A stretch of 64,000 nucleotides of DNA from Trypanosoma brucei (taxonomy: Eukaryota), in contig CH464491.1 of assembly GCA_000002445.1 (NCBI GenBank), positions 2,880,001-2,944,000 on the forward strand. Reading direction: 5' to 3'. Position 1 is the first letter of the stretch. Each line of letters begins with the position of its first letter. Under the pieces are notes generated by a model. That model was not told the DNA's origin and did no database searches. It saw only the letters and a list, made by a program, of their open reading frames with translations. Both the position numbers and the translations under genes were made by a program. Shown in pieces: positions 301 to 42,527 of this stretch.

Positions 301-313
301 GGGGGGGGGGGGC
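301..313 (+). repeat. (GT)n followed by a G13 homopolymer tract
   Basis: The sequence tgtgtgtgtggggggggggggg sits in a 5' intergenic or UTR region. Confidence 0.5.
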
Positions 314-13572: not shown

Positions 13573-14271
13573 ATGGGGGTGCCAACAATGGAACGAAGCC
13601 ACGGTCGTCGCTCACCCGACGAGGTCCGTTACCCTCACATTGTGCTCAACGTGCTTGGACAGAGTTACAGTAGCGCATGCATCGAAGTCGGAAGCACGCG
13701 GGTCGTTTGCGCCGTACATCACCCACAACAACTAATTGATGAGTACCGCGGGAGTCGAGGACGTGTTGCCTGTACAGTGCGAAGGTCCTCTCGCGCGCAA
13801 AAGCATGAATTAGCATTTCGAGCAGACGTCACACCAGAAAAAGACCTGGCCTTGGCGTTAGAAGGTGTAGTTGAGCAGGCAGTTGTGTTGGAGAAAATAC
13901 CGCAGCTGTTGGTGGAGGTTGCGGTAGAGATCCTCGCAGAGGATGGCGGGCTTTGGGACGCGATAGCCACGGGTGTGTGTGCCGCACTGGCGAGTGGGGG
14001 ATTTGAAATGTACGACACTTTTTCCGCCTGCGGTGCCGCGCTCCTGCCCGACGGCTCCATCGTGACCGATCCCAGCGCCACCGAGTGGAACACTGCTAAG
14101 GCCACGGCGGTCACGTGTGCCATGTTGAACTCAGGAAATATGTGCTTCACCGCGCAGCGGGGGTCGTGTGAGCCGACCACTGCACTCGACCTTGTGATGG
14201 CTGCTTTGAAGGGAACCTTGGCGCGTAAGAATGTCATCTCATCTCAGTTGTGCGAACAGTTTGCATTTTAG
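13573..14271 (+). CDS. RNase PH-like exosome subunit (RRP41/RRP46-type fold)
   Basis: 232 aa with an ATG at 13573 and an alternative ATG at 13588. The RNase-PH signature R-x-DE-x-R..G..AcIEvGsTrVvCaV-hP appears as RRSPDEVRYPHIVLNVLGQSYSSACIEVGSTRVVCAVHHP, followed by a second alpha/beta half. Confidence 0.6.
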   Translation: MGVPTMERSHGRRSPDEVRYPHIVLNVLGQSYSSACIEVGSTRVVCAVHHPQQLIDEYRGSRGRVACTVRRSSRAQKHELAFRADVTPEKDLALALEGVVEQAVVLEKIPQLLVEVAVEILAEDGGLWDAIATGVCAALASGGFEMYDTFSACGAALLPDGSIVTDPSATEWNTAKATAVTCAMLNSGNMCFTAQRGSCEPTTALDLVMAALKGTLARKNVISSQLCEQFAF

Positions 14272-14512: not shown

Positions 14513-15373
14513 ATGGCAACGTCGGAATCTGACGGGCTTCTCATGACGGAAGAAGTAGTTATACAACAATGTAAGAAACATCACGGGTATTCCACACCGG
14601 AACTCAACCGAAATATATACCTTAACCACTTGGGACTTATGAACATCTCATCCCTTAACGCATTCCACCAATGCAGGGTGTTGTACCTCAACAATAATGC
14701 CATCGATAACTTGGAGGGGCTTCACCCACTTCAAAATTTGCACGCGCTTTATATTGGTAATAACGCTATTCGAAACTGTAAAAGCTTTCCGATGTTGCCT
14801 TCGCTGCGACTTGTAGACATTTCCTCAAATTTTATTGAAAGCTTGGAAGGCCTTTCGAGCATCCCCAACTTAGAGACTTTACTTGCCTCACGGAATCGGG
14901 TGAGGAACCTTAGGGGAGTAGAGGGGAACAGAAAGCTAATGACGATCGATGTTTCAAAGAATGCTATTGAACGTGAGGAAGACATCGTGCCGTGGATTCT
15001 CGAAATGGAAGGACTTCGCAGTTGCATGTTTCAAGGCAACCGCTTTGTAACTTCAATGCAAAGCTATAGAAAAAAGATAATTGCGTGGGTGCCGTCGCTG
15101 CGCTTCATGGACCAATGCCCTGTGTTCCCCGAGGAGCGGAGCTGCGCTGAAGCGTATGCTCAAGGAGGAACAAGGGCAGAAAAAGCGCAGCGTGACGAAA
15201 ACAGACGTCAGGAGGAGCAGGAAAGGCAGAGACAGTTTGAGTTCTTCGGCAGCCAACGTCAGGAGGCTCGTGAAAGTCGAGACACCAAGGGCCCAACATG
15301 CACCAATACCGCCTATTATGACGATAACGATTTGCAGTGTATATATGTGCCAAACAGTGTGGGACGTGTGTAA
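14513..15373 (+). CDS. leucine-rich repeat protein (SDS22-like 22-residue LRRs) with a charged C-terminus
   Basis: 286 aa with an ATG start. It carries tandem LxxLxxLxxLxLxxNxIxxI units, for example LYLNNNAIDNLEGLHPLQNLHALYIGNNAIRN..LRLVDISSNFIESLEGL. The C-terminus is E/R/Q-rich. Confidence 0.6.
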   Translation: MATSESDGLLMTEEVVIQQCKKHHGYSTPELNRNIYLNHLGLMNISSLNAFHQCRVLYLNNNAIDNLEGLHPLQNLHALYIGNNAIRNCKSFPMLPSLRLVDISSNFIESLEGLSSIPNLETLLASRNRVRNLRGVEGNRKLMTIDVSKNAIEREEDIVPWILEMEGLRSCMFQGNRFVTSMQSYRKKIIAWVPSLRFMDQCPVFPEERSCAEAYAQGGTRAEKAQRDENRRQEEQERQRQFEFFGSQRQEARESRDTKGPTCTNTAYYDDNDLQCIYVPNSVGRV

Positions 15374-15741: not shown

Positions 15742-16746
15742 ATGACGATTGTTGCGGACTGTGGAAACTCACAGGCAGTGACATCCGTGTGCACAATGGG
15801 AACGCCTGAGTGCGATGAGGAGCTCAGACTCTTTCTGCGTTGTTTGCGCGCCCTTCATCCGCATGTGCAAGTGGTAGTGGGATGCACATCTGGCATGATC
15901 AGCCCTGGTCGAAGTGCGAGCAGTGCCTTCGCTGACTTCGGTATGGATGAAAAAATCGAGTGGGTTCCCTGTCTCGATCCTTACCTACCCATCAACAGGG
16001 GCACAATGGAACAGCAGCACGGGGTGTGGTACCCCTCGCGCCATGCAGACTTCATGATGGAAAAGGCAAACTTGATGGAGCGCGCGATGATGCTGCACAG
16101 TCCGCAGAAGCCTTGCGGGGGCGGTCCAGAATGCGTTGTGGCGTTCCTCGACTGTGACGTCGTCTTGCTGGGAGAGCTTCCGTGCATCCCATTTGGCACG
16201 CAAGTGGCGTTGTCACCGCATCAACTGCGTACTCGAGACGAAGCTCTCTTCGGCAAGTATAACGGTGGATATGTTGTTGCTACCACCCCTTCTGTTATCT
16301 ATGAGTGGAGGCGCGCAACACAGTACTCGAGGTACTTTGACCAAGCCTCGCTAGAGTGCGTGGCCAACAGTTTCTCATCCACTCTATACGAGTTGCCACC
16401 GCAACACAATTACGGATACTGGCGGCTCTTCCAGACTTACCGAGTAGATCCACTTGCTGAAGCGAAGCAGTTTTCTATTAAGCCAATGGGCAGCCCCCGC
16501 CAATGGACCCTCTGCTACGAGGGAGCCCCGCTCAGATCCATTCACACGCACCTTCTCACATCAACATGCCGGCAAGGGCGGGACGTTCAGGCATTTAACA
16601 CGCTCATAAGAAGATGGATACAAAGGTGCGTTCAACCTCCACACCGGGTGACAACCGCAGCAGTTGCGGCCAACCGGCTCTATGAGGTGTGTCTCGGTCC
16701 TTACCTGAAAGTGGCTGGTCAAAAGTTGTCCAAAGCGCCGCCATGA
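15742..16746 (+). CDS. hypothetical protein, possibly a DxD-type nucleotide-sugar transferase-like protein
   Basis: 334-aa ORF with an ATG start at the spacing expected in the gene array. A VVAFLDCDVVLLGE block resembles a DxD motif. The assignment is weak. Confidence 0.4.
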   Translation: MTIVADCGNSQAVTSVCTMGTPECDEELRLFLRCLRALHPHVQVVVGCTSGMISPGRSASSAFADFGMDEKIEWVPCLDPYLPINRGTMEQQHGVWYPSRHADFMMEKANLMERAMMLHSPQKPCGGGPECVVAFLDCDVVLLGELPCIPFGTQVALSPHQLRTRDEALFGKYNGGYVVATTPSVIYEWRRATQYSRYFDQASLECVANSFSSTLYELPPQHNYGYWRLFQTYRVDPLAEAKQFSIKPMGSPRQWTLCYEGAPLRSIHTHLLTSTCRQGRDVQAFNTLIRRWIQRCVQPPHRVTTAAVAANRLYEVCLGPYLKVAGQKLSKAPP

Positions 16747-19700
16747 GGTTTCTACGACACTTTGCTCGGGTATCGTTACTGCGTTGTAGCTGTGTTCTTT
16801 TTCGTTCCTTTACTTCATCTGCAGTCCTTTCAACGCCGTAGATTGCACGGCACATTTTTACATCCCCAACGATGGAGTGTGACATGACCCTTTTACAAAA
16901 GTGTAAGGCCTCTGCAGAGCGGCATGCTCAGCTTCGTAAGGGACCCTAATGGTCCCCTAGAAAGGTTAGCGTCAAAACTCACAAAAAAAACAAGTAGGGG
17001 TTTCGGCTGCTTCCCTTTTTTGACACGGAAACCCTGATGGCCCTCTCCTCCCCATTATCCCCCTTAAGTTGAGTATGCATTGTGGCTGCAACGATGCCAC
17101 ACTTCTTTCCACTAGCTGTCTATTTTTCCCCTTGTCTTTGCCCCAAACGGGTGCGCGCATACACAACCGTACGAGTCGCCACCCGAGGAAACTGCTGACC
17201 TCTATGGCACTCTTGCATCCGACAACGGTACAATGTTTGCATGTGAAAAATGGAAAATGAGGGGAGAGAAATAGAAAAGGAAGTGATGTCATACAACCAA
17301 AGCACCCGCCGACGCAACGAGAGCGGTGAGTACGGTTGAGGCAGGGGTACTCACAATTGGCTCGAAATAACAAAGCCCACAAAATCCCACCCCAGTTTGC
17401 TTTGATGCCCATTAGCCCAAACACTGGACAGATCTCTTTATATATACGACGGGCACGAGACGATTAGTCAAAAACGTCTGTTCCGTCAAACGGAGAATAC
17501 ACTCGCTCCCCCCCCCCTCCCTTTAACACGAGTGTCCTCCGAAACTCAGTAACGTGAGAGTGTCGAGAGTTGAGGCAGCAACCTCGTAGGGATCTTCCGG
17601 TTGGAGGGGAGGCGCACCAAAACACTCTTTGCGTCATCGCACTGAAAGGTCAGATTTCGGCGTAAACGCTGCGGAAGTTGCCAATACATACATACGGTCC
17701 ACAGCACAGGACCTTCTATTTTGCGTCGGAACCACCAAAACACAGCTGCACCACCAACGACTCAGGTCAATGAGAGGTGCGACGTCGGAGCCGTTGATTC
17801 TAAACACGGGAGTACCTTTTTTCCACAGCACAAAGCTGGGACCTTTCCACATCTGGGGGCACCGAACTCTTTGGAAATATATTGGTTTATCCCCTCACGT
17901 TGTGCGTGCCACGCGCCGTTACTCCTAGGATCGGCCAGAGACCTGCACTCCCCCCCTTCCCCGCCCTCCAGCAAACTTCACGACAAGGACGTACTTTCCA
18001 TCCCTCCTTTGAACCAAGGAGACGCTTGAACCGCCGTGGTGTGGGACGCCCGACTGCCCGTTTCTCATCCATTCTGGACAGTCAGCGCCACACTTGCCCC
18101 TTCAAGGTTGGGCACCCACGCACACACCTCACGTTGGGATGTTTATTATCCCTGCCTCCGTCACCGCCATATGCGGCACCATGCGCTCCCTCTCCTGCAA
18201 CGTGCTCCCCACCCACCCCCCCCCCAAAAAAAAAAGCCACGCAACACACCAACTTTAGGTTTAAGGAAGAGCGCAGCGCCGCCTCCGCTATCGGTGGTGG
18301 GCAGCGTCTGACCCCGGCGCCGGAGGGGACCCGCCATCCATTCCATTCCGACTTTACCCAAGTGTATGGAACCGCTGCGCCACAACCCCAAACCGGTTAA
18401 CCTCAGGGGAACCGAGTAGAGAGGCGGGTCCGTTTCCCCTCGCAATCCTTGAGGTCACTTCACGAGTCGTTGCGCAGGAAAAAATAAAAGGAACTTTGTG
18501 AACCGGTGAGCCTTTGAATGCATGTGGAGACGCGGTGTTTCCTTTGGACCCAGTGCTAAGTGGGGAAAGGCTAATACCGTCAGAAGGGGGAAATATCAGC
18601 CCGCTCCGCATTCTTGCCGTGGCGCCGGGCGCCCTTGGTTAAGGCCATGTCTCACTTCGACCGTCTGAACGGCATCGGCAGCAACCCCCTTGGTTTGAGG
18701 TCTGGGAAGAGCTGTCCCCTACAAAGTGCCTTTCCACCTCGTTTACTTCCCCAACTTTTGCGACATCGGGAATTTAAACAGCCAACTGCGACCCCCGATA
18801 TTCCGATTTCGACCGAATGCGGGTATCCTTTGATTCCTAAACCCTGTAGCTGGCGAGGCCAACCTCCTTGACGTAGTGCTTGGGTTATGACGAATGGTTG
18901 CTGCACTCCTTTGTCACGTTCAACTTCTCCGACTCTCCACATGGAAACTTTCTAACAACCCCGCCACTGACAGGATGATTCCGCCTGCCGCATCCGTGTC
19001 AGCCGCTTCGCCCTATAGGGTTAACCTTGTCCACTGCGCTTTGCGGGGCTTGCTGGGAGGGTGTCTGGGAGTGTCATCGCTGACTCTCCATTTTGTAACC
19101 ACTTCGGTTGTTTTTTTCCCCTCTCCTTGTATCCGCACTTGCTGCGCGGATGGTCAGCCACACGTTTGTTCACGCTGTGTGGCACAGGGACCGCGCCTCT
19201 CATTAGATGCTCCTCGAAGTTTCCAGTTGGCAAGCGTCCCGCAACAAGTCCCCTCCCGCGTGTCAGATTCGCCATCCTTGCAACGGCAATACTTCCTATC
19301 TGACAGACTTTTCTCGCGTCTGCCTGTTTTGTGTCTTCCTATTCCTCCACGGGCTCCCTCCTTAACTTTCTTCGCCAGTTTTCAACCCTATTCCCCCTTT
19401 TCAAATGGGCACGGGGTAAGTCCTCTCTCGAAAATGCGCGGTTGCAAGCAAAGCGCCTTCGAGCCTCACCACCACAGGTTATGGGTTCGCTTTGCCCTCT
19501 CCTTTTCTCTGTCTAGGAGTTTGTGGCCTTCGATCCCACCCATTGCCTCGAGGCGATGCGAGTATTTTTCATATCCTCATCACCATCTGGGGTCCCGAAC
19601 AGGGTAATTGAATATTGCCGCAGGGTGCTGACTTCCCACTTTTAGCCAAATGCACACCCCCATTTCGCAATGTTCGCGCGGCCAACCTACAAAATTTTCC

Positions 19701-20041
19701 CTTTCTCTTAGTCGCGATCTACGCTTTAGCGCCGTTGTCAACCCCCCTTCCCCGAAGAAACCGTGGGCTCAGGTATGCACACGCTAAGATTGTTGTCTTT
19801 TGTCCTGTTTTCCATTCCCCGCAGCAAGGAGTTCACGTTTTCAGCGTTTCGTCCGCCACTGCCCCAGGGGAAGATGCGGTTGGGCACCGTACAAACCACC
19901 AGATTGCAGTGTCCTAGCCCCAGTTTCAGTAAGTGGAAACGGTGTGCCTAATCCGCTGGTTGGCGCCACTAAGCTTTGCTTTTGCCGTTTCTGCCTTCGA
20001 AAGCACTCCTATTTACACTCATTCCCGCATTTGTTTGTTTG

Positions 20042-20062
20042 GGGGGGGAAGGGAAGGGAAGT
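20042..20062 (+). other. G-quadruplex-forming motif (GGGGGGGG AA GGG AA GGG AAG)
   Basis: Four G-runs of at least 3 are separated by 2-nt loops, inside the ORF-free interval. This is a sequence-level observation only. Confidence 0.3.
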
Positions 20063-23000
20063 GCCACGCAGTGTCACCAAGAGTTTTTCAAGGTTTTGGC
20101 ATAGACATGAACAAAGATGGCATCCCTCACCCGTGGTGGGCGGTTCTTCTTTGCAACGAACCGAATACCGACGGGAAGGTCACTCGTGCGTGTATCTGCC
20201 TAGCCTTGAGCAAACCCCCATACACAGCACATTCCTCGTCACACCCCCGCTCAGTGGGACCGGCCGAAAAACCAACGATACATGCTCAGTAAGCTGGCGG
20301 CTGATTATTTCCCTCATCATAATATCGTGCACCAACTCATTCATCTATGCGGAGGTTGATGCGTGCATAACGCGTCGGGATCAGGTCATCTTCATGACCA
20401 AACGAACGAAGCACGCTCTGCGCACGGTAAAAGATTTCATATTCCACCCGAGTGTGGTCGGTCACGTTTTTCCTGGAAAGAAGATGAAATTGAGTAACCG
20501 CCTCAATCTGGATCTGCCCTCCCCTTTGTGTTTTATCATTTTTAGGAACCGTTTGACCACAACATCCTCAGTAGTTTTTGACACCCGTCAGCTGCTGGCA
20601 CGGCCTTTCGCTCAGAATACCATAGCCGCTATGACGCTGCTTGGCTCAATCCTATTTTTTTTTTGGAATTTTCTTCGTGCCTTCGTGAGAGTTTCCCCCC
20701 ACTGGCGCGGCTATCAGCCATCACCGTAGAGCCCTGAGATGCTATCGGTCTGGCGATTGTGGCAGAGTCTCCCTTTTTCATTCATCCTAACACACCCTCT
20801 ATAATTTTTTGTTGTAGCTCCGCAGATGAACGGAATACAGCAGATGGGGCGAGAAGCCCCCCACCCCAGACTCTCCCAAAGATGTCAATTGGCCATCCTT
20901 TTTTGGAGTTCCACATCACCGGACAGCAGCATCTTAGTGCGGATGATACTGCTGATGGCACGCTGGCACGTGCCCAGGGACCGACAAATGAAAAACGGTG
21001 TCCCAGCAAGACGCTGCTGATCCCTGTGCTGTATGATGCCGTAGCCGGAGCACAGCAGTGTTCCCCATGAAAGGAACTCTGCTGGCTCTTGGCTTCCCCC
21101 GATGATACGGGGTACTGGACCATGGCACCACGTTGAAGTGTCTGGCATCGCCAGGGGGCTCAATCCTAAGCCCCCCGCGCGAAGACACACGCCTCACCGC
21201 GACGCCCGGGGAAGCCATATCATGTTTTGATGGAAGCCAAAAATCGGCGGCGCTACCATCAAAGAAACCCTTATAACTGGCGTGCTTCTGCTAAACGTCG
21301 TACTTTGGAGTTCACCGCCAACATCGATATGATGGGTTGTGGCACATTTTTTTTTCCGAAAACTCCTTTTAGAGGCTCTGTTTTTCGACAGTATTTCCCA
21401 AACCTTTAATTTCCCCGTCTTCCCGACGGGCGAAACCACCAACTACTCAATACTTTGTGTCAGGGCGCCCTTCTCGAAAAGTTCCGGAAGGGGAAAAATG
21501 ACGGTGAAACGGGCATCCGAACCAGTGACATGAATGAAAAGGCGAACAGAGCACATTAGCGCCCTCGCCGCTGACAAAACTTTTTCTGTGCCAAGAATAT
21601 TTTGTGTTCATACTTTTTTTTTAGTAGTTTGGAGAAGAAAGCGCGGCTGGGGCGCGTGTATTTTCGCGCTGGTGGCCAAGCGGATTGTGTGTCCGTCCGC
21701 CCTTTTCCGACCTTTGCGGAAACAACATGCTTTACTAAACGCCCATTATCCTGCACTATAATTCCAGTTTTCAAGCCTTCGCCCGCATGGGAATCGAACG
21801 CTGAAATCTTGCTTTTAATAGGGAGCAACGACTGTTGTGTCACGGCAGATGGCACGAGCGGCCTCGCGCCACACCAGTGGTGTTCCGAAAGAGGGTTCAG
21901 CTGTTTAACGCGCGGCGTTCGAGAGCAAACCTATATTTTCACTCCGCACCTGCTAACACCTGAGTTTCACAATTGTCCTGGACATTCACTAAGGGAGAAA
22001 TACATGCGTACGGCTGGAAAATGTAGAGAAGGTAAGTAAAGAAGAGCTTTCACCTCACGGGCCCCTCTCCCATTGTCCTTACTTTAACAGCGCACGTCGG
22101 GAAAGGAGAGGTTCCGTGCCCCCCGCCCGTTTTAGTTTCCTTTAGCTTAAAGACCTCAAATAAATTACTCCCACGTAAACGCTCTCGATGAATAATCTAC
22201 GGGCGGCTCTCTTTTCTACGAATTCCCCGTGGGCCCCGTCGGATTATAACGTTTAGTAGGCCTCCGGGGTTGGGAAGCCCAATCAAAGGTTACATTTTCC
22301 CACTACCCGTTTTAGAAGGGGTGGCGTCGCTCCACACACCGCCATCGACTGAAGAAACCCTTGTGTGTTGGCGAGAACTTTGATGAGCACAACTGGAAAG
22401 TGTTCTCTCTGCTTTCTTGGCTACATTTTATACGGCAGCCCGACCTCGACTTTATAAGGTTGTCGGAGACCCTTCGAGTCCACCAGCGGTGTTGCGCGTA
22501 CGTGGTGTGGATTCACGCCGACCCCCATTGCCATGTGTTCCTTCCCTTACTGAGGAGGTTCTGAGTTTCACCGTTTTGTGTGTCCAGAGCCGTATTGTGG
22601 AGCAGAACCCCTCCCTACATTTGGAGCCCCCAAAGTGTATCCGGACAGTCTCACTCGCGAGGGTGTTCCGCGGCAAGTTTGTCACGGCATTTGGCTAAAC
22701 GGTAAAGGTCGCGCGTCTATGTTGGTCTTTTAAACCCAAAATATTAGCGCTCTTGCGGCATAATCGCATCCATTCTCCAAGTTCCCAATTTGTGTTCTCC
22801 CATTGCCGATGGGCTGTGCTCTGTTCCACTGCCGCTGCTCATGTAGAGGCCGTTGTGTAACTTTTCCCAGTGCGTGGAGAGTAAGGTCCCTTTTCGGTTC
22901 GGCCATGGGTCCGCAGTACGGGAAACGAGGTATTTGAGATGCTGCAGTCTTGGCTGCGTCTGGGGGCTCCCAGTGTGTTGCTGTGCTCGAGCTTTTGTGC

Positions 23001-26000
23001 TTCGTTCTTTTTGTATCCCTCCAGAACGGGCTGTCCTTTACTTCACCGAAACAGCGTTTTGGAGACACAACCACGTCACAAACGGCAAGAGTCCGTTTCG
23101 TGGGAGACCGAAACCCAGAGATTTCACACTTCAGATTTTTTTTTTGAGTGTGAACAAGGGGTAATGGTTTTGTCGGCGGAGGGAAACGCCTCTGGTTTCA
23201 GTATAGGGTTCCCCCACCATCCTTACCGATGGCAAACCGCTGGCAGTTTTTACCCCGTAGGAATGCAGCACGAACCCGCGTCCCCTTAACACACATTCTT
23301 CACCCTGTGCTGCAGCCTGCATGCTCCCTATTCGTCTCTAAGGGTGTCTTCTGGCGACTTTTGTCGACGCATTGTATGGGATATTCCTCGAGGTCACTGG
23401 GAACGTTCCATGGGCGCGGCTTTGATACGCGAGGAGGGGTCGCGGGTGCGACTTGAGTTGTGTTCCCGAGTTGTGTGCAGTACTTAAACTGTCGCGGCGC
23501 CCTCCCACAGGACTCGCCGCGCGTCCGGGCTTGACGGCACTCTCGCGCTACTTCCTTACGAATGGTTGTAGATTGCTGTTGCAGCTGTTATATTCTTGCA
23601 AAGGAAAACAAGCACCAACCGCACCTGTTTTGAAGTTCCTTTTTCAATTCTTCAGAGCGGTTGCTCATGAAAAATAAAATCTCCCTCGTGGGGCTGTGGA
23701 GTCACGCCGTCTCTCTTGCTGAGGTTGTGCAATGTGGAAAGCAGGCTCGATGACTCTTGAAGTCAAATCAGGATGGAAGCACCTGCTCTCAAGGACGACC
23801 GGGTGTTAAGGAAGGCTCGCCTCAGCACTTGGGGTCTCGTTTGAACCGTTGTAGTCGGGCGCATCGTCGTTCCGCCAGAAGTCGGATGCTTGTAAGTTGG
23901 AGGAAGGGCTGTGGACAGGCAACGTGCGCGCGGCACCAATATATATCGATCCGTGTCCACCGATTGCTACTTGGCAAACTTGTTGTACGTGTGTGTGTGG
24001 CAGGAAGGCGAGGGAGGTGTCGCAGCCCCAGAAAAACCTGAAGCATCCTCACGCCTCTCCAAAGTGGGAGTTCACAGTTTCGTTCTCGACTGTTGTCTTG
24101 CCGCCATGATCTTACATTTGATGGGGGACAGAGATTTCAGTGGAACAAACTGCGGGTCTTCTGCGAATGAAGGACGCCTGGGAGCCCGGCTCCACTGCAC
24201 TGCCGCCTTTATGCAGTGGTGCGGTGTCTCGTCGCGGCCCTAAGGGTTGGCAGTTGCGGTGTCTGAGCCCGCTGCAAGGGGGGGGGTCTTGACATTAATA
24301 GCGCAATACTCCTTGGCGATTTGGGCCGCTTGAATGTGACGGGGGTATTCACTGCCTCGTGCTTTCGGGGGAGGCCGGAGCCAAGCGGCGTCCCCGGCCC
24401 GGCAAGCCTTGTGGCGTCCACTAAGATTGAGGTGACTCAAAACGGGATGATGCGCCGTTTTCACTTGAGCCGCCGTCTCTTTTCCCGGGTGGCGTATAAA
24501 CGCGCGCCGACGTACCGTGGAGTATCACGCTAACCGGGATACTGCCGCTGTGGTCCGTGCTTCTAGGTGTATTCCGCACTGATGCAGGGGATGGGTGGGG
24601 ATGAGGGTTGTCTCACATGAAGGAGCGAAGAAAATTAGAAGAATTCAGAGGTCTTCGACAAGCGGGGTTGCACATGGGCGCGGTGCACAAACTATGAGGT
24701 TCCTGCTACGTTACCTGTAGTTTCACACGTTCCGCCATGCGAGCAGTGTTACCATTCGAATGAAGGACGGTGCGGTGTTTGAGGCTCTGTTTACTTTAAA
24801 TACGAATATAAGGACATGAAGGAGAGTGCATTTGTTGCGGAACCTGGTGGAAGGCACCACTGTTTCAACAAAGTGACCAAGCATTTAAAGTTGAGTGTTG
24901 ACCGCATAAAACGTAAAGGCAGGGAGCCGTGCGCCGGGCGGACGTCCATCGTTTCAACTGTAAAGGATGAGTGAGTATACTATTTTGCTTCGATATGCAT
25001 GATTAAAGAAAGTGCTTATTGTGTTGATGTTGCTGTCATGAATGTTCAGGTGGTGTGATGATAGTGATCCACAAAATTTTAATTCATCGCATCCCCATAG
25101 TATTCGGGAGTTCTGGTGAACCGGAGCGTATGGCTAACGCCTTCCCCCTTTTTGGGTGAGTTGATCAAGTCAGTCTTGCGTTTATTTTGCTTAGTTTGCG
25201 GTAGGGAATATGTATTTTCCGGGCACCAGAAGTACTCGGGTGCTTTTAGCGCTTCGTGGCGTATGAGGGTTATTGGAGAAGGGCGGTAACTCTTCTGAAA
25301 TAAATAAGTGGTTGAATGTGTTTAAGTGATGCCTGCCACCACAATTGAAACTCAGCCGATGCGAATCATGTGTGATTTTTGTTTATATGCCTTATGTATT
25401 TTGTACTGATGTGTCTGCGTTTGCTGTACTAAATTTCCCCGCTGATGCTGCACTTGCTGCAGAAGGGGTGGTAGATAGGGCGATGGCTTATGTGATGTTG
25501 CTCCTGAGAGCGGTGGGTCATGATGCGGTTTAAGCCCATTTTGACGGAAAAGAGCGACGGGATTTTCAGTTGGAAAAGTTATGATATTTAATTGTGCATG
25601 TGCTGCATCTCGTGGGAACGGCTCATTCATTATCCTTCGTGGCGTTGTACTGGATGTTTTATCTATGACGGAATGGATAAGGGAAATAAATCATCTGCCT
25701 TTTCCCCCTTTTCGCTTTGCAGCTACAAATCTAGAGGTAGTGCACCTGAAGTGTTGAAATATTGTTTAAAGAGCGGTTTTAGCATAAGTTTGCGTCGAAG
25801 CAATTTGCTTTTGTGGCACCGAGATCTCTTCATCTTATTTTTGGTCCCACGCTCTTTAATAAACATTCGAACTTACAGTTGCTTGAAGAGAGGCAAAAAG
25901 GATGCTGAGAGCAAAACCTATTTACAGACTTGGTACCAATGCTCATAATCACTTATAATATTACCTAACACGCAGGGAAGGAGATGAACTGTGATTATTT

Positions 26001-28511
26001 TGTTTTGCAATGCTGTGCTTTGTGAAGGCAGATGCTTTTCGCTTTCGGTGGCGTCTAAGAAAAGTAATGCAACTGGACAACAGGTATGATTTTGTTCTTT
26101 AATACCCAACGAGTGCTTGCTCGTGTGCTAATGCGTGGTGTCCCGTGATGCTTTCTTAATGTGACCTCAGAGGGGTTGCTGTAGGGAGCAGGGTTTCTCC
26201 TCTTTGCTGGTCCATATCGCACTGTACGCATTGGTTTCAGCTAAGGTGCGTACCTGGAGTAAACAATGCACATCAAAGTGGCTGACGCGGTGCGTGCATA
26301 TATGTGTGTGATGAGGCGGCATCCCTACTGCCTTTGTCCGGAGGTGTTTCCGCGATTCGAATACATGGTCATAATTCTTGGAGGAGGTATGGGAGAGTTT
26401 TTCAAATATTACAAACCCCCATTGCACGTAGAATGTCTGCATATCGTTCTTTTGTAGCAACCGGGGTTCCTTTTTTCTTTTTTTTTTTTGTAAATTTCCC
26501 TGACAGGTCTTGCGTCAGGTTGGGTGGAGACACTGACCCTCCGTTGGACGGGATTTGCCTTCCACCAGCCAAAGGGCGACTCCGTAACCGTTTTGTCGTT
26601 TTTTTTTTTCCAAGAGTGCAATGTTGCACCCTTGTCACCCAGTTTTGTGTGCACTGGAGCGCTCCTTCTTTTGAATGAATAAGCGGCGTACGTCTTGTGA
26701 TTTCTTTGACACAGATGAAAATCACATACCTTAGCTTCTACCATAAACTTCAAGTGGTCTTTTACACTTTCCAACTGTCAGCATTTCCTCTTTTAGTTAT
26801 TACCCGCGTGTCGCACCGTACCGTTACAAAAAAAATAATTGCTGTTTGCTTCAACATCAAGGCATGGTTGTTCGGTTCTTTTATTAGTTACCGAGTGTCA
26901 TCATTGAAAAAACATTAAGTTTTTCATGATGTTTCGTGAGAGAAGGTAGCGTGGCTTATTACTGTGTACGACATGTTTTTTTTTGAGATGGATTGATCTC
27001 ATAGTAAGGGGCACTGTTCCCTGGTTTACGGATGTTATCCCTCCTGAAATATTGTCAGCAACCTGAATTTTTCTTGCGAAGTTATCTCCAGGTGTGTTTC
27101 TGCTGTTGTCATCATTAAAAAAAATTATCCATCGTGAACCCACCGCGCGAATGAAATTACCTCCGGTGGTCATTTTTTTTTTGTACTTCTACCCATTTTC
27201 AGCATTCTATGCGATGGGAGGGCTTACAAACTGAGATGGTACGTTGACAAAATGGATCCAACGAATGTGCTCCTCACGTTTCGTTCAGCGGATATCTTGC
27301 ACGTGTGTTTGTAAAGGTGCACAACCGCATGCCCGTATAGTTAACGTTCACTGACTGCCACGCATCTACATGGCGTTAACAGTGCGCGAACATTGGACTC
27401 CAATATATGCAACTGCATAATAACATGCGTGTTCTTGGTCTTTAAAAGAAAAACTACACTTTTCTGTGCAAGATGTTCTGAGCTGCGGTGTCGGGCGTGG
27501 CCCTTAACTTATTTCTAAAGGGGCATCTCTACCTCCATTTTTTAACCTTAAAAATAACGCGGCCCACCTGCGGCTCCATCGAACAAGCGTTTATTTGTAT
27601 CTGTTTTGCGTTGGAAGACTTCTACTTTAAATATTTTCGGCAAGTGCCATTATTGACTTGACACGTGTTTTTTTGTCCGCGCACTGGGTCACATCCATAC
27701 ATACCTAGGTGGCTGCGTTTTTATGAATGACCATTGTTGTGGTAGTTGCTGACGTGAAAGTGTTGGTAATTGTGGAGGTCGGTATCTGTGTAATATAGAT
27801 GCTGGACGCCGTCGTTGTTATCAAGCATTATATTTCTCTCGTTTTGTTAGTAGCTAAATACCGTTGCGTAGGCCTTACCGAATGTTAAAAATTTTGTTTG
27901 AGTGTATTCAGCGATCCCTCCCTTTACGTTTCCTGTTGTTTTGACATGCTTACCACTGGGTGGTTCGGTGCATCTAGTTGTGTGCTACCTCTGTTCAACC
28001 TTATTGGGATGTATTTTGTACTCTTCGTTCCAGCGCGTGAGGAGCAAGTGGAGAAGGGATTGTAACCGTTCGCTCTCACCAAGGTGGCACAGATTTTGTC
28101 CGGCCAATGTAGTGGGTACGCTAGGGTTTACTGTCTTTTGCACATGTGCGCGGTTTTATTGAGAAACTAAGGGATGCAGACTCGTCAAGTATGTGAATGC
28201 TTTCTTGCAACGCGGGGTGTATTACTGCATTCGTATGGGGTTCCTCTCCACACAGCTTGATGTCTCTAACGTTCTTTTTTGCTTTTGACCCGAAATACCT
28301 GGGTAGCTGTTCTTCCTCTCCAGAGATTTGGGTTAAATAACGAGTTTGGCGGAGATGCGACCATATGCATCCGTACATGGTTCTGTACGTACGCAATGTC
28401 GCTACTGCGTTTAACCAAATAGCATTCACTTGCCCATGCTTACTTTCTTTGCGATGAGAACCACGAAAGCGACCTGTTACTTTTCTATTTAAAAAAAAAA
28501 TATGAAGAGCA

Positions 28512-28904
28512 ATGCCTCACCGCTCCACTGTGAGTAAAAAGAGGTCTAACAGTGTAAGTAGACCGACTGCTGCACAAAAATGCGCTGCACAGCCTCGTCC
28601 AACAGCCACCGCAAGCGAAGGGAGATTCCCAATATACGGAAGAAAGCCAGCTGTCACCGAGCCCCACCAACCGCAGGCAATTTGGAACAACACTTCTACG
28701 CGTGAAGATGTTGGAGGACGTGCATTGTATGATAAAGAACTTGCCCATATTGCACAACGACTACACGAGGAGCTGTGCTCTTTTCGACAGAGAACTCAAC
28801 GGGCGCGGATGCGGGAGTGCCTGGCTTACAGTCGGCTCCGACAAATCCTGACCACCCGACTCAGTGTACGAAATATAGTTGAAGAACAATCAGAGGGACG
28901 GTAG
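28512..28904 (+). CDS. hypothetical small basic protein (130 aa)
   Basis: ORF with an ATG start, preceded by a poly(A)/pyrimidine tract at 28489-28510 at the downstream end of the long ORF-free interval. It is basic and Q/R-rich with no recognisable domain. Confidence 0.25.
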   Translation: MPHRSTVSKKRSNSVSRPTAAQKCAAQPRPTATASEGRFPIYGRKPAVTEPHQPQAIWNNTSTREDVGGRALYDKELAHIAQRLHEELCSFRQRTQRARMRECLAYSRLRQILTTRLSVRNIVEEQSEGR

Positions 28905-29285
28905 ATAATGGAGCAGGTACAAGTGCAAGAACCCACACACAATAACAGCAGCAAAGAACACAATAATCCTTAGGCTAATAAAGTACCAAAGTTAAGCCAT
29001 GAGAACTTGCACTTTTCATTATTAACAATTTTTTAACCTTTCCATTTCTCATATATAAATATACACGTATAAAAAAAAGAAAGAGGAGAGCCAACGACGG
29101 CAGCAGCCGCACCGAACAAAAGACGCCTACAACCAAGCACAATCAAACAATAGACGACAAAATACCGGCATCACCACTAGAGAGTATACTAGTGGAAGCA
29201 GCAGAGTGTGGAGGCCAAAGCACCACCGTTGGATTTCTGTGATTTCGTTAACAGCGTTGATACTAAGCAAACTCGTGCTGCAATC

Positions 29286-32200
29286 ATGTCTGAAATAGCT
29301 CACTCTGCGGTGGGTGACGTGCCGATTGACTCTTTTAAAGCAGACAGTCACAATGGTGGAAAAGATGCATGGGTGTGCACCCGATGTGGTAAGGTGAAGG
29401 ATCTTCGGGGTGATCATCTTCGAGGCAAGATGGAGGTCCGTTCTGATTGTTGGCCCTGTGGAAAGAAGGCGACATTCAAGTTGCAAAGCAGGCTCTCGGA
29501 TGACGGTAGTAATAACAACGTCCCTGCAGCTAGCACTGTCGATGATACGCATCAACCAAAAGGCGTCGGGAACGCAACAATAGTTGGAGGATTTCGTGCT
29601 CCTGTCGTTCCTTCAACCGGTGACGAGCACCAGTTTCTTTTCCCTGCTCCCGTACTCCAGTGCTCAACCCCAAGCTTATCAGCAGACTGCTCCTCTGTAT
29701 GGAAATGCTCTATCTGTGGAAAGGTGAAGCCACTTTCTGGTGATCATTTGCGGGGGAAAACAGAGGTGCGAAGCGATTGCTGGCCTTGTGGCTGCAAGAG
29801 AACGTTTGTGTTGAGTCCTGTTGACGGTGAATACGGATGCTCCGCGTTGCCGAAGGAGGATGCATCGAAGACTATTTCAAAGGCCAGCGAGAACGTTAAG
29901 GAGCAAGCTACCACTGGCGCACAAATACCAGTACAACCCGCAGCAATACCATTTAAGAGTGTATTTGATACACAGAGCAGTGGAGATGCGAAACCACCCG
30001 CAGCAACACCATTTAAGAGTGTATTTGATACACAGAGCAGTGGAGATGCGAAACCACCTGCAGCAACGCCATTTAAGAGTGTGTTTGGTACACAGAGCAG
30101 TGGAGATGCGAAACCACCTGCAGCAACACCATTTAAGAGTGTGTTTGGTACACAGAGCAGTGGAGATGCGAAACCACCCGCAGCAACACCATTTAAGAGT
30201 GTATTTGATACACAGAGCAGTGGAGATGCGAAACCACCTGCAGCAACGCCATTTAAGAGTGTATTTGATACACAGAGCAGTGGAGATGCGAAACCACCTG
30301 CAGCAACGCCATTTAAGAGTGTGTTTGGTACACAGAGCAGTGGAGATGCGAAACCACCCGCAGCAACACCATTTAAGAGTGTATTTGATACACAGAGCAG
30401 TGGAGATGCGAAACCACCCGCAGCAACGCCATTTAAGAGTGTGTTTGGTACACAGAGCAGTGGAGATGCGAAACCACCCGCAGCAACACCATTTAAGAGT
30501 GTATTTGATACACAGAGCAGTGGAGATGCGAAACCACCTGCAGCAACACCATTTAAGAGTGATTCCATTAATGGCTTTTTTATTAAGCAAACTCGTGCTG
30601 GAATCATGTCTGAAATAGCTCACTCTGCGGTGGGTGACGTGCCGATTGACTCTTTTAAAGCAGACAGTCACAATGGTGGAAAAGATGCATGGGTGTGCAC
30701 CCGATGTGGTAAGGTGAAGGATCTTCGGGGTGATCATCTTCGAGGCAAGATGGAGGTCCGTTCTGATTGTTGGCCCTGTGGAAAGAAGGCGACATTCAAG
30801 TTGCAAAGCAGGCTCTCGGATGACGGTAGTAATAACAACGTCCCTGCAGCTAGCACTGTCGATGATACGCATCAACCAAAAGGCGTCGGGAACGCAACAA
30901 TAGTTGGAGGATTTCGTGCTCCTGTCGTTCCTTCAACCGGTGACGAGCACCAGTTTCTTTTCCCTGCTCCCGTACTCCAGTGCTCAACCCCAAGCTTATC
31001 AGCAGACTGCTCCTCTGTATGGAAATGCTCTACCTGTGGAAAGGTGAAGCCACTTTCTGGTGATCATTTGCGGGGGAAAACAGAGGTGCGAAGCGATTGC
31101 TGGCCTTGTGGCTGCAAGAGAACGTTTGTGTTGAGTCCTGTTGACGGTGAATACGGATGCTCCGCGTTGCCGAAGGAGGATGCATCGAAGACTATTTCAA
31201 AGGCCAGCGAGAACGTTAAGGAGCAAGCTACCACTGGCGCACAAATACCAGTACAACCCGCAGCAATACCATTTAAGAGTGTATTTGATACACAGAGCAG
31301 TGGAGATGCGAAACCACCTGCAGCAACACCATTTAAGAGTGTGTTTGGTACACAGAGCAGTGGAGATGCGAAACCACCTGCAGCAACACCATTTAAGAGT
31401 GTGTTTGGTACACAGAGCAGTGGAGATGCGAAACCACCCGCAGCAACACCATTTAAGAGTGTATTTGGTACACAGAGCAGTGGAGATGCGAAACCACCCG
31501 CAGCAACACCATTTAAGAGTGATTCCATTAATGGCTTTTTTATTAAGCAAACTCGTGCTGGAATCATGTCTGAAATAGCTCACTCTGCGGTGGGTGACGT
31601 GCCGATTGACTCTTTTAAAGCAGACAGTCACAATGGTGGAAAAGATGCATGGGTGTGCACCCGATGTGGTAAGGTGAAGGATCTTCGGGGTGATCATCTT
31701 CGAGGCAAGATGGAGGTCCGTTCTGATTGTTGGCCCTGTGGAAAGAAGGCGACATTCAAGTTGCAAAGCAGGCTCTCGGATGACGGTAGTAATAACAACG
31801 TCCCTGCAGCTAGCACTGTCGATGATACGCATCAACCAAAAGGCGTCGGGAACGCAACAATAGTTGGAGGATTTCGTGCTCCTGTCGTTCCTTCAACCGG
31901 TGACGAGCACCAGTTTCTTTTCCCTGCTCCCGTACTCCAGTGCTCAACCCCAAGCTTATCAGCAGACTGCTCCTCTGTATGGAAATGCTCTACCTGTGGA
32001 AAGGTGAAGCCACTTTCTGGTGATCATTTGCGGGGGAAAACAGAGGTGCGAAGCGATTGCTGGCCTTGTGGCTGCAAGAGAACGTTTGTGTTGAGTCCTG
32101 TTGACGGTGAATACGGATGCTCCGCGTTGCCGAAGGAGGATGCATCGAAGACTATTTCAAAGGCCAGCGAGAACGTTAAGGAGCAAGCTACCACTGGCGC

Positions 32201-42355: not shown

Positions 42356-42527
42356 GAAAGAAAGGGTGTCGCTGACGCAACCTTCAGTTGCGTGGTACTG
42401 ATGATGGTTTAATGCTGTTGAACTAATTTATCACCTTAGTGACTCATGTTTGGTTGCTGTAAACTAATAAGTGAGTTTGTGTTGCATATGCCCCACCCTC
42501 CCCTATAGCTTTTATCTCGCTCGTTAG

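What the first reader, a model, noticed from the sequence alone, without database searches (positions are those of the whole stretch)
16747..28511. About 11.7 kb with no convincing ORF inside a same-strand gene array
Flanking genes are all on the + strand and typically 0.3-1.2 kb apart. This interval has only short, low-complexity ORFs of at most about 300 aa in mixed frames, with no ATG context or domain. It shifts from G+C-rich with many C- and G-runs (17.0-24.5 kb) to A+T-rich (24.6-28.5 kb). Possible explanations are a very long 3' UTR; ncRNA loci such as a snoRNA cluster or pol III genes, although I could not confirm any tRNA A/B boxes by eye; a degenerate retroelement or RHS-type pseudogene; or an internal transcription termination and re-initiation boundary within the transcription unit. 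A G4 motif lies at 20042-20062 and C10A10 at 18212-18231.
Basis: partly seen in the sequence, partly recalled or inferred. Interest (0 to 1): 0.55.

Follow-up and report, generated by a model that had tools for sequence, protein, structure and literature searches.

The report
Known transcription-unit boundary on T. brucei chromosome 11
The 11.7 kb gene-free stretch is the already mapped gap between two same-direction gene arrays on Trypanosoma brucei chromosome 11, where RNA polymerase II stops and restarts; it also holds a 502-bp RIME mobile element, so it is real but ordinary.

Summary
The window is Trypanosoma brucei TREU927 chromosome 11 (Tb927_11_01_v4 2,880,001-2,944,000). Window 16747-28511 has no tRNA, Rfam or Pfam match and no coding-type 3-base periodicity. 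The composition shift, the G4 motif and the C10A10 run are all present.

Published data already explain the interval. Kolev et al. 2010 (Table S14) end one pol II transcription unit at Tb11.01.2840, the gene stopping at 16746. They start the next unit, typed 'Internal', at Tb11.01.2880 (TbNUP149, 29208). Their tables place low-abundance trans-spliced transcripts at 17116-18028, 25723-28338 and 28459-28979. They report no transcript for 18029-25722, and they list the two annotated ORFs there as giving no transcript.

Two things are new here:
- A complete 502-bp RIME retroposon lies on the minus strand at 21156-20655. It has a Pr77-type 5' end, an A10 tail and a perfect 12-bp target-site duplication.
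- A roughly 2-kb segment (18668-20654) recurs just after the last gene of the next transcription unit.

GC skew is reversed only across 16.2-23.3 kb. The long-UTR, ncRNA-cluster, DIRE/RHS, frameshifted-gene and centromere readings are not supported.

Verdict: already known, low interest.

The parts
15742..16746 (+). Tb11.01.2840 / Tb927.11.11050, a glycogenin-like nucleotide-sugar transferase. It is the last annotated ORF of the upstream PTU (Tb11.01.1590 to Tb11.01.2840).
   Evidence: Exact protein match to EAN80058.1. The gene order was fixed from the poly(A) sites of Tb11.01.2790 and Tb11.01.2800 and from EAP4 = Tb927.11.11030. The PTU end is in Kolev Table S14. In L. mexicana the orthologue is the last gene before a convergent strand-switch region that carries two tRNA genes.
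17116..18028 (+). Tb11.NT.123, a published trans-spliced, polyadenylated 912-nt transcript at 1.35 copies per cell. Its longest ATG ORF is 52 aa. It is probably the last processed RNA of the upstream PTU.
   Evidence: Kolev Table S7, coordinates 2897116-2898028 minus the 2,880,000 offset. An AG dinucleotide and a polypyrimidine tract lie immediately upstream of 17116.
18029..25722 (.). A 7.7-kb zone for which Kolev's tables list no processed transcript in procyclic forms. It is the inferred termination zone plus the transcription start region.
   Evidence: Table S7 lists nothing here. Tb11.01.2860 and Tb11.01.2870 are in Table S2, 'ORFs not producing a detectable transcript'. That the zone holds the termination and start sites is inference.
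16176..23338 (.). The only sustained domain of reversed GC skew (C>G on the + strand) in the window. G/T-only 10-mers on the minus strand are concentrated at 15-19 kb.
   Evidence: The cumulative GC skew has its maximum at 16176 and its minimum at 23338. All 19 genes have GC skew >= 0. 52 of the window's 112 minus-strand GT-only 10-mers lie in 15-19 kb.
18216..18235 (+). The C10A10 homopolymer pair. The orthologous T. equiperdum short-read contig ends here.
   Evidence: L002 matches the window from 16747 to 18225 and then the contig ends.
18668..20654 (+). A roughly 2-kb segment that is duplicated 89 kb downstream, next to Tb11.01.3220. There it begins 3.1 kb after the last gene of the next PTU. 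The copies evolve in concert.
   Evidence: L001 positions 9775-11791 match window 18668-20684 at 99.95%. L001 is colinear with the Tb11.01.3200-3220 locus, judged from the ORF of Tb11.NT.128. The two TREU927 protein copies are identical over 223 aa. Both DAL972 copies share S93L, R101H and L146W.
18894..19607 (+). Tb11.01.2860 (Tb927.11.11060 by gene order), annotated 'T. brucei spp.-specific protein', 237 aa. Probably not a functional gene.
   Evidence: listed in Table S2 as giving no transcript. No Pfam domain.
18891..20729 (+). A reading frame with significantly few stops: 4 in 613 codons. It includes Tb11.01.2860 and Tb11.01.2870 (20394-20729, 'hypothetical, unlikely'). Its last 24 codons are antisense RIME sequence. 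Its origin is unresolved.
   Evidence: 0 of 1000 dinucleotide shuffles reach 4 or fewer stops. There is no homologue of the last 309 aa among 1.84 billion representatives, except itself and a VSG-like fragment sharing only the RIME-tail-encoded last 29 residues. There is no 3-base periodicity.
20041..20061 (+). The G-quadruplex-type run GGGGGGGGAAGGGAAGGGAAG.
   Evidence: No function was tested.
20655..21156 (-). A complete RIME-type non-autonomous retroposon of the ingi clade, 502 bp. Its 5' end reads CCCTGGCGATGCC... with CGTG at +25 to +28 (Pr77 hallmark). It carries a relic of the ingi N-terminal region (...SSIIRTKMLLSGDVE). The A10 tail is at 20655-20664.
   Evidence: Sequence and element extraction. 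The Pr77 features were compared with the primer 5'-CCCTGGCTCAGCCGG and the CGTG downstream promoter element described in PMC4748587. The ingi and RIME architecture is in PMC12278014 and PMC3708506. A related T. equiperdum copy reads ...SGDVEENPSPS.
20643..20654 (-). Target-site duplication TAGGATTGAGCC (minus-strand reading), the copy after the A-tail.
   Evidence: Perfect 12/12 match to 21168-21157.
21157..21168 (-). Target-site duplication TAGGATTGAGCC, the copy immediately 5' of the RIME.
22500..28400 (+). The part of the gap that is G+T-rich on the + strand (GT fraction 0.53-0.62). It includes a G9 run at 24278-24286. GC falls to 0.44 from 24.6 kb. It is the inferred sense half of the transcription start region.
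   Evidence: GT-rich coding-strand elements in T. brucei start regions are described in PMC5579346. This enrichment is no stronger than in ordinary intergenic spacers, so it is only consistent with the reading, not diagnostic.
25723..28338 (+). Tb11.NT.124, a published trans-spliced 2615-nt transcript at 1.45 copies per cell. Its longest ATG ORF is 81 aa. It is the first processed RNA of the downstream PTU and looks like a lncRNA.
   Evidence: Kolev Table S7. AG and a polypyrimidine tract lie upstream of 25723.
28459..28979 (+). Tb11.NT.125, a 520-nt transcript at 3.9 copies per cell. It contains the 130-aa ORF 28512-28904, which has homologues only in Trypanozoon.
29208..33605 (+). Tb11.01.2880 / Tb927.11.11080, TbNUP149. 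It is the first annotated ORF of the 'Internal' PTU (Tb11.01.2880 to Tb11.01.3200).
   Evidence: Kolev Table S14. The TbNUP149 and TbNUP140 gene IDs are given. The ORF has FG-type repeats.

Best explanation
The interval is a head-to-tail boundary between two RNA polymerase II polycistronic transcription units (PTUs) on T. brucei chromosome 11.

The upstream PTU ends with the glycogenin-like gene (stop at 16746) and one low-abundance processed RNA (17116-18028). Polymerase then terminates somewhere in a 7.7-kb stretch with no reported processed transcript. That stretch carries two spurious annotated ORFs, a minus-strand RIME retroposon and a roughly 2-kb segment that also sits behind the last gene of the next PTU.

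Transcription re-initiates from a broad, motif-less 'internal' (single, sTSR-type) start region in the right part of the gap. It yields two low-abundance, poorly coding trans-spliced RNAs (25723-28338 and 28459-28979) and then TbNUP149, TbNUP140 and about 30 further genes.

Shown: the PTU assignment, the transcript map, the RIME, the duplication and the skew pattern.

Inferred:
- Termination lies at roughly 18-21 kb.
- The start region is centred near the GC-skew minimum, at about 23 kb.
- The reversed skew of 16.2-23.3 kb reflects antisense transcription from the bidirectional start region and/or from the RIME's Pr77 promoter.
- The usual chromatin marks (H2A.Z, H2B.V and H4K10ac on the right; H3.V, H4.V and base J on the left) are present here.
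For: 1. Identity of the locus. Exact protein matches place the window on T. brucei TREU927 chromosome 11. Tb11.01.2860 at 2898894-2899607 equals window 18894-19607, giving an offset of 2,880,000. All four published splice-acceptor sites that were mapped back are preceded by AG and a polypyrimidine tract.
2. Kolev et al. 2010 Table S14 lists PTU Tb11.01.1590 to Tb11.01.2840 (+), followed by PTU Tb11.01.2880 to Tb11.01.3200 (+, 'Internal'). In that paper, start sites were called from 5'-triphosphate RNA enrichment together with the histone marks of Siegel et al. 2009.
3. Table S7 gives Tb11.NT.123, 124 and 125 at the positions above and lists nothing for 18029-25722. Table S2 lists Tb11.01.2860 and Tb11.01.2870 as giving no transcript.
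4. Nothing coding or RNA-gene-like is present.
5. Strand asymmetry switches only here in 64 kb.
6. The boundary is old on its left side. In L. mexicana the orthologue is the last gene before a 6.6-kb convergent strand-switch region with tRNA-Met and tRNA-Leu. In T. vivax it is followed by 5 kb without a called gene and then a minus-strand gene. None of the other T. brucei window genes is found next to the orthologue in T. theileri, T. rangeli, T. vivax or L. mexicana, so this is a synteny breakpoint.
Start regions are 5-10 kb wide and lack motifs, and hypothetical ORFs are often annotated inside them. Base J marked 10 of 10 head-to-tail regions on chromosome 10. Ingi-clade elements accumulate at PTU boundaries (abstract of PMC4748587).
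Against: - No ChIP, nascent-RNA or 5'-triphosphate track could be read for these coordinates. The exact start and stop positions inside 18-25.7 kb are therefore inferred.
- Kolev's data come from procyclic T. b. rhodesiense YTat 1.1, so other life stages could differ.
- The + strand GT-richness of 22.5-28.4 kb is no greater than in ordinary intergenic spacers. Sequence alone does not single out a promoter.
- The locus was not found in the supplements of three later chromatin and termination papers, possibly because they use other gene IDs.
- The stop-depleted frame at 18891-20729 is not explained by a pure 'boundary spacer' reading.
Confidence: 0.85

Rival explanations
1. The GC-rich half (about 17-24.5 kb) is a large degenerate retroelement (a DIRE or ingi relic) or an RHS-type pseudogene. 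On this reading the gap exists because mobile DNA accumulated there.
For: A bona fide ingi-clade element, the RIME at 20655-21156, is present. The flanking 2-kb segment is a dispersed two-copy repeat. One frame over 18891-20729 is stop-depleted, like a decayed ORF. Retroelements are known to gather at PTU boundaries.
Against: Six-frame Pfam scans at E<=1 find no RVT, Exo_endo_phos, RNase H or RHS domain. The last 309 aa of the open frame have no homologue among 1.84 billion representative proteins, a library that should include ingi, L1Tc and RHS proteins. No second Pr77-like sequence occurs in the window. There is no 3-base periodicity. The T. equiperdum short-read contigs fetched are continuous over 16747-18225 and 21129-30081; apart from an uncovered stretch at 18226-18667, only 18.7-21.2 kb behaves as repeated. 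The RIME has its own target-site duplication, so it is an independent 502-bp insertion.
Confidence: 0.1
2. The interval is one very long 3' UTR of the upstream gene and/or 5' UTR of NUP149, so that the two gene arrays form one uninterrupted transcription unit.
For: Both arrays are on the same strand. T. brucei has some multi-kb UTRs (own knowledge). Low-level processed RNAs exist at both edges of the gap.
Against: A separate spliced-leader acceptor site at 17116 and a poly(A) site at 18028 define an independent RNA. Kolev's tables list no transcript at 18029-25722. The authors, using 5'-triphosphate data, call a new 'Internal' PTU starting at Tb11.01.2880.
Confidence: 0.03
3. The interval hides a functional protein-coding gene (or a very recent pseudogene) broken by a few frameshifts or sequencing errors, namely the 18891-20729 frame.
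For: There are 4 stops in 613 codons in one frame, against 19-27 in the other five frames (p<0.001 by shuffling). The segment is kept in two nearly identical copies.
Against: The same stops are present in T. equiperdum, with only 1 mismatch in 2017 bp. No transcript was detected. There is no domain, no homologue outside Trypanozoon and no codon periodicity. The translated sequence is rich in Ser, Pro, Arg, Cys and Leu and does not look protein-like. The 3' end of the frame runs into antisense RIME sequence.
Confidence: 0.05
4. The interval holds non-coding RNA genes (a snoRNA cluster, tRNAs or other pol III genes), or it is the chromosome 11 centromere.
For: It is gene-free, and other 'Internal' PTU starts in T. 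brucei lie next to tRNA or snRNA genes. Centromeres lie between gene clusters and contain retroelements.
Against: There is no tRNA and no Rfam family even at E<=1. There are no tandem repeats at all, whereas T. brucei centromeres are defined by arrays of about 147-bp AT-rich repeats. Kolev types this start as 'Internal', not as 'next to tRNA', 'next to snRNA' or 'next to rRNA'.
Confidence: 0.02

Closest known systems
Internal (head-to-tail, 'sTSR'-type) RNA pol II transcription-unit boundaries of T. brucei (Siegel et al. 2009; Kolev et al. 2010; Staneva et al. 2022)
   Same: It lies between two same-strand gene arrays. It is listed by name as an 'Internal' PTU start in Kolev Table S14. It is several kb wide, has no defined motif, contains orphan 'hypothetical' ORFs that are not expressed, and has low-abundance non-coding spliced RNAs at the start of the unit.
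   Different: At 11.7 kb (12.5 kb to the first conserved gene) it is about ten times longer than the other intergenic spacers in this window. It contains a 7-kb domain of reversed GC skew, which would be more typical of a divergent strand-switch region. No locus-specific chromatin data could be read here.
TbRIME, the 0.5-kb non-autonomous member of the ingi/L1Tc clade of non-LTR retroposons
   Same: It is 502 bp long. Its 5' end starts CCCTGGC, with CGTG at +25 to +28 (the Pr77 hallmark). The first ~250 bp encode the ingi N-terminal stretch up to ...SGDVE. It has an A10 tail and a perfect 12-bp target-site duplication.
   Different: No reference RIME sequence was available for alignment. The match of ...SSIIRTKMLLSGDVE to the ingi 2A-like sequence rests partly on my own memory of the published 'TSR1' 2A peptide, and the string was not found in the paper library. 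Activity of this copy's Pr77 is untested.
Convergent strand-switch regions with tRNA genes in Leishmania (pol II termination sites)
   Same: The orthologue of the gene left of the gap is the last gene of its PTU in L. mexicana. It is followed by a 6.6-kb convergent strand-switch region with tRNA-Met and tRNA-Leu. The left edge of the gap is therefore an old PTU end.
   Different: In T. brucei the next unit runs in the same direction, there are no tRNA genes, and the neighbouring genes on both sides differ.

Membership tests
T. brucei internal pol II PTU boundary (termination region plus single start region) | Lies between two arrays of genes on the same strand, with an experimentally called new PTU starting downstream | tested here: met
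   Kolev 2010 Table S14 gives Tb11.01.1590 to 2840 (+) and then Tb11.01.2880 to 3200 (+, Internal). These are the genes at 15742-16746 and 29208-33605.
T. brucei internal pol II PTU boundary (termination region plus single start region) | No continuous processed mRNA across the boundary | tested here: met
   Tables S7 and S2 list transcripts only at 17116-18028, 25723-28338 and 28459-28979. Tb11.01.2860 and Tb11.01.2870 give no transcript.
T. brucei internal pol II PTU boundary (termination region plus single start region) | H2A.Z, H2B.V, H4K10ac and SPARC at the start region; H3.V, H4.V and base J at the termination region | not testable with these tools
   No ChIP tracks are available here. 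Siegel 2009 is not held. The locus was not found in the supplements of three later papers.
T. brucei internal pol II PTU boundary (termination region plus single start region) | G/T-rich sequence on the coding strand of the start region | tested here: inconclusive
   The GT fraction is 0.53-0.62 over 22.5-28.4 kb, but this is similar to ordinary spacers. The strongest strand-biased GT 10-mer cluster is on the minus strand at 15-19 kb.
TbRIME (ingi-clade non-autonomous retroposon) | Pr77 hallmark at the 5' end (starts CCCTGGC, CGTG downstream promoter element near +25 to +28) | tested here: met
   The minus strand from 21156 reads CCCTGGCGATGCCAGACACTTCAACGTGG, compared with PMC4748587.
TbRIME (ingi-clade non-autonomous retroposon) | Length of about 0.5 kb, 3' poly(A) tail and a flanking target-site duplication | tested here: met
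   502 bp, A10 tail and a 12/12 TSD TAGGATTGAGCC. The architecture is described in PMC12278014.
TbRIME (ingi-clade non-autonomous retroposon) | Nucleotide identity to a reference RIME or to the ingi ends | not tested
   No reference sequence is reachable. The only support is 95.5% identity over 134 bp to another copy in T. equiperdum scaffold L008, plus a RIME-tail match in P0126.
Autonomous or degenerate ingi (DIRE), or RHS pseudogene | Recognisable APE, RT, RNase H or RHS protein domains in some frame | tested here: not met
   Pfam scans of all six frames at E<=1 gave no such family. The phmmer search of the longest ORF found no relatives.
tRNA, snoRNA or other structured RNA gene cluster | A match to tRNA or Rfam covariance models | tested here: not met
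   ARAGORN found 0 genes. Rfam found 0 at gathering score and 0 at E<=1.
T. brucei centromere | An array of about 147-bp AT-rich tandem repeats | tested here: not met
   TRF and the repeat finder find no array in 16-29.3 kb. The defining feature is described in PMC1868937.

The most novel reading that the evidence does not exclude
The roughly 2-kb segment plus RIME is a functional module rather than junk. It sits 2-3 kb behind the last gene of two consecutive + strand PTUs, in the same orientation, and the two copies are homogenised by gene conversion. It could act as a terminator or insulator. For example, the RIME's Pr77 promoter could fire antisense into the oncoming polymerase and seed dsRNA/siRNA or J/H3.V chromatin. 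Alternatively, the two direct repeats could be recombination substrates able to loop out or amplify the 89-kb NUP149-containing PTU.
Probability: 0.08. Interest if true: 0.55.

Novelty: already known. Interest (0 to 1): 0.15.

Why it matters
It mainly matters as a clean negative. A striking 11.7-kb ORF-free gap inside a same-strand gene array in a trypanosome is explained by a published transcription-unit boundary, not by a hidden gene or a new RNA locus.

Three residual points could interest specialists:
- A reversed-skew domain and an antisense-pointing, Pr77-bearing RIME lie exactly where termination must occur.
- A two-copy, concertedly evolving 2-kb segment brackets one whole PTU.
- An orphan frame is significantly depleted of stops but shows no other sign of coding.

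These could be used to test whether sequence elements contribute to pol II termination at head-to-tail boundaries. Current models attribute termination there to chromatin marks alone.

Tried and rejected
- A concatenated 4678-aa pseudo-protein of all long open stretches was sent to the search for homologous proteins and returned nothing. The known exact match P0015 was also missed, so I treat this as a method failure and not as evidence.
It was redone with stop-free segments of at least 35 aa joined by X. The only hit was a chance-level DAAD match (E = 0.047, below the cut-off).
- tblastx and blastn of the gap against the syntenic loci of T. theileri, T. vivax, T. rangeli and L. mexicana found no conserved non-coding or pseudogene sequence.
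- I first read the minus-strand ingi-like stretch as a 3'-truncated 300-bp fragment starting near 21212. The 12-bp repeat showed that the true element is 21156-20655, a complete RIME, and that the 5'/3' junction at 20909 is simply the RIME structure.
- The left part of T. equiperdum scaffold L008 (1-2608) is not orthologous. It joins at an N-gap inside the RIME and is 95.5% rather than 99.8% identical, so I rejected it as a scaffolding artefact at a high-copy repeat.
- P0017 could not be located on any contig.
- Searches for the locus in the supplements of Kieft 2020, Kim 2021 and Staneva 2022 found nothing. Siegel 2009 is not held. The centromere papers give no chromosome 11 position.
- The bacterial promoter and terminator scan was not used, because it does not apply to this organism.

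Full report
**Where the window comes from.** Exact look-ups of flanking proteins identify Trypanosoma brucei (Trypanozoon) chromosome 11. The flanking genes are exosome-associated protein 4 (13573-14271), an LRR protein (14513-15373) and a glycogenin-like nucleotide-sugar transferase (15742-16746, EAN80058.1). Supplementary Table S2 of Kolev et al. 2010 (PMC2936537) places Tb11.01.2860 at Tb927_11_01_v4:2898894-2899607. This is the ORF at window 18894-19607, so window coordinate = chromosome coordinate minus 2,880,000. The mapping is confirmed in two ways. All four published splice-acceptor sites that were transferred fall directly after an AG preceded by a polypyrimidine tract. The published poly(A) sites of Tb11.01.2790 and Tb11.01.2800 fit the ORFs at 3272-4753 and 5861-6907. 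By order, the gene ending at 16746 is Tb11.01.2840 (Tb927.11.11050). The ORFs at 29208-33605 and 33758-38152 are Tb11.01.2880/Tb927.11.11080 (TbNUP149) and Tb927.11.11090 (TbNUP140).

**Checking the observation.** It holds. The interval 16747-28511 has at most a 313-codon open stretch and a 237-aa ATG ORF. Every other spacer between + strand genes in the window is 0.24-1.3 kb. GC is 0.52-0.55 up to 24.6 kb and 0.44 beyond. The G-run motif is at 20041-20061. The C10A10 run is at 18216-18235, four bases right of the stated position. ARAGORN finds no tRNA. Rfam finds nothing at gathering score or at E<=1. There are no direct, inverted or tandem repeats of note. Pfam finds no domain in any of the six frames. 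Three-base periodicity, which has a median of 7.5 in the window's genes (10th percentile 4.6), has a median of 2.0 and a maximum of 4.2 across the gap.

**What it is.** Kolev et al. sequenced 5'-triphosphate-enriched RNA and combined it with the histone-variant maps of Siegel et al. 2009 to list putative pol II transcription units. Their Table S14 lists Tb11.01.1590 to Tb11.01.2840 (+, Divergent), followed by Tb11.01.2880 to Tb11.01.3200 (+, Internal). The gap is therefore exactly the space between the last ORF of one unit and the first ORF of the next. The restart is of the 'internal' type, with no strand switch and no adjacent tRNA, snRNA or rRNA gene.

Their Table S7 places three new trans-spliced, polyadenylated, low-abundance transcripts in the gap:
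- Tb11.NT.123 at 17116-18028.
- Tb11.NT.124 at 25723-28338.
- Tb11.NT.125 at 28459-28979.

Their longest ATG ORFs are 52, 81 and 130 aa. Table S7 lists nothing for 18029-25722. The two ORFs annotated there, Tb11.01.2860 and Tb11.01.2870 ('hypothetical, unlikely', 20394-20729), are in Table S2 as producing no detectable transcript.

**Comparative context.** Orthologues of the glycogenin-like gene were located in other trypanosomatids, and their neighbourhoods were fetched.
- In L. mexicana the orthologue is the last gene of its array. It is followed by a 6.6-kb convergent strand-switch region containing tRNA-Met and tRNA-Leu.
- In T. vivax it is followed by 5 kb without called genes and then a minus-strand gene.
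- In T. theileri, T. rangeli and L. mexicana the upstream neighbours are TYW3, a prefoldin subunit and an unnamed protein. In T. brucei they are a VPS8-like protein, EAP4 and an LRR protein.
- No other gene of the 64-kb window is found in those loci.

The gap therefore sits at a synteny breakpoint whose left side is an old PTU end. No sequence of the gap is conserved in the other species, at either DNA or translated level.

**Anatomy found here.**

1. *Reversed strand asymmetry.* All 19 genes of the window have GC skew >= 0, and most spacers do too. From 16176 to 23338 the cumulative skew falls; this is the only sustained C>G domain in 64 kb. Of 112 10-mers that are pure G/T on the minus strand, 52 lie in 15-19 kb. 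Wedel et al. 2017 report G/T-rich 10-mers on the coding strand of start regions and a 4:1 sense:antisense initiation ratio. Kolev et al. report bidirectional initiation at all start sites. The pattern is therefore what a start region centred near 23 kb, with an antisense arm pointing left, would leave. This is inference. The + strand GT-richness of 22.5-28.4 kb is no greater than in ordinary spacers.

2. *A complete RIME.* The minus strand from 21156 reads CCCTGGCGATGCCAGACACTTCAACGTGG.... It starts like the Pr77 hallmark (L1Tc primer 5'-CCCTGGCTCAGCCGG) and has the CGTG downstream element at +25 to +28. The first 248 bp encode ...RSLGTCQRAISSIIRTKMLLSGDVE, the N-terminal stretch of ingi up to its 2A-like site. 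A related copy in T. equiperdum continues ...GDVEENPSPS. The link to the published ingi 2A peptide is partly from my own memory. The element ends in A10 at 20664-20655. It is flanked by a perfect 12-bp direct repeat, TAGGATTGAGCC, at 21168-21157 and 20654-20643. At 502 bp, with a poly(A) tail and a target-site duplication, it fits the described TbRIME. Tb11.01.2870 reads antisense through its tail. The only other protein sharing that tail is a VSG-like fragment fused to the same sequence. No second Pr77-like sequence is in the window.

3. *A two-copy segment.* T. equiperdum contig L001 carries window 18668-20684 at 99.95% identity, but behind a different set of genes (AAA, WD40, DUF179, APG12-like and AlkB-like). 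The 97-aa ORF of Tb11.NT.128 fixes L001 as the Tb11.01.3200-3220 locus, 89 kb downstream. There the segment begins 3.1 kb after the last gene of the 'Internal' PTU. In the window it begins 1.9 kb after the last gene of the preceding PTU. Both copies thus lie in termination zones and in the same orientation. L001 includes the target-site duplication, the A-tail and the first 20 nt of the RIME's 3' end before a scaffold gap. The paralogue therefore probably carries the RIME too. The two TREU927 ORF copies are identical over 223 aa. Both T. b. gambiense copies share three substitutions relative to them, which is a sign of gene conversion. The T. equiperdum contigs fetched run continuously over 16747-18225 and 21129-30081. 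No fetched contig covers 18226-18667. Within what is covered, only 18.7-21.2 kb behaves as repeated DNA.

4. *An unexplained frame.* The frame of Tb11.01.2860 has four stops in 613 codons (18891-20729). The other five frames have 19-27, and the minimum over three frames in dinucleotide shuffles averages 12.9. None of 1000 shuffles reaches four or fewer. Against this, the frame shows no periodicity, no domain, no homologue and no transcript. Its end is RIME antisense. I leave it as a possible relic of a lineage-specific ORF.

**Rivals.**
- A large DIRE, ingi or RHS relic is not supported.
- A frameshifted gene is unlikely. The same stops occur in T. equiperdum, and the other evidence against coding applies.
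- RNA gene clusters are not supported.
- A centromere is not supported, because the defining ~147-bp AT-rich arrays are absent.

**Limits.** I could not read any chromatin or nascent-RNA track for the locus. Termination at about 18-21 kb, initiation at about 22-25.7 kb and the presence of H2A.Z or of H3.V and base J are therefore inferred from what is general for such boundaries. One protein search was wasted on a concatenated query that failed for technical reasons.

**Verdict.** It is an internal pol II transcription-unit boundary, with a RIME insertion and a small segmental duplication as ordinary passengers. Interest is low. The only points worth a specialist's second look are the paired, concertedly evolving segment with its antisense Pr77 element at two successive PTU ends, and the orphan stop-depleted frame.

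Noticed in passing
window 18668-20654, and L001 9775-11791: A roughly 2-kb segment is present twice on chromosome 11, 89 kb apart. Each copy lies 2-3 kb behind the last gene of a + strand transcription unit (after Tb11.01.2840 and after Tb11.01.3200). The two copies therefore bracket the whole NUP149-containing PTU as direct repeats. Copies within a strain are more alike than orthologous copies between subspecies, which points to gene conversion.
   Followed up: partly
window 18891-20729 (+): One reading frame has only 4 stops in 613 codons (p<0.001 by dinucleotide shuffling). It shows no periodicity, domain, homologue or transcript. It may be the relic of a Trypanozoon-specific ORF that was cut by the RIME insertion.
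   Followed up: partly
window 29208-33605 and 33758-38152: TbNUP149 consists of three near-identical ~320-aa modules. Each module has two Cys-rich (zinc-finger-like) units followed by 20-aa FG-type repeats (PPAATPFKSVFxTQSSGDAK). TbNUP140 has about 96 tandem 36-nt (12-aa) repeats. T. equiperdum short-read contigs break inside these repeats.
   Followed up: no
L007 16241-16457 (L. mexicana): tRNA-Met and tRNA-Leu genes sit in the convergent strand-switch region just downstream of the Leishmania orthologue of the gene left of the gap. T. brucei has no tRNA gene at its boundary.
   Followed up: partly
L008 1-2618 (T. equiperdum CZPT02000171.1): The scaffold joins a non-orthologous piece to the NUP149 upstream region through a 10-N gap inside the RIME. 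That piece holds a different ingi/RIME-like copy, with ...GDVEENPSPS and an A11 tail, plus a minus-strand gene. It is a likely mis-scaffold at a high-copy repeat.
   Followed up: partly
window 300-312, 984-991 and 1063-1071: Three G-runs (G13, G8, G9) on the + strand cluster in the first 1.1 kb of the window, upstream of the first long + strand ORF. G-runs on the coding strand are reported for T. brucei start regions, but Kolev's table places no PTU start here.
   Followed up: no
window 42509-43185: The published novel transcript Tb11.NT.126 (676 nt) lies in the spacer before the 1026-aa ORF at 43205. An AG and a polypyrimidine tract precede its 5' end.
   Followed up: no
chromosome v4 2,984,600-3,002,500 (outside the window): The next boundary, where the second repeat copy lies, is an even larger gene-poor region of about 18 kb. 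It holds only a single-gene minus-strand PTU (Tb11.01.3240), two ORFs with no detected transcript (Tb11.01.3220 and Tb11.01.3250) and four consecutive novel transcripts (Tb11.NT.129-132).
   Followed up: no
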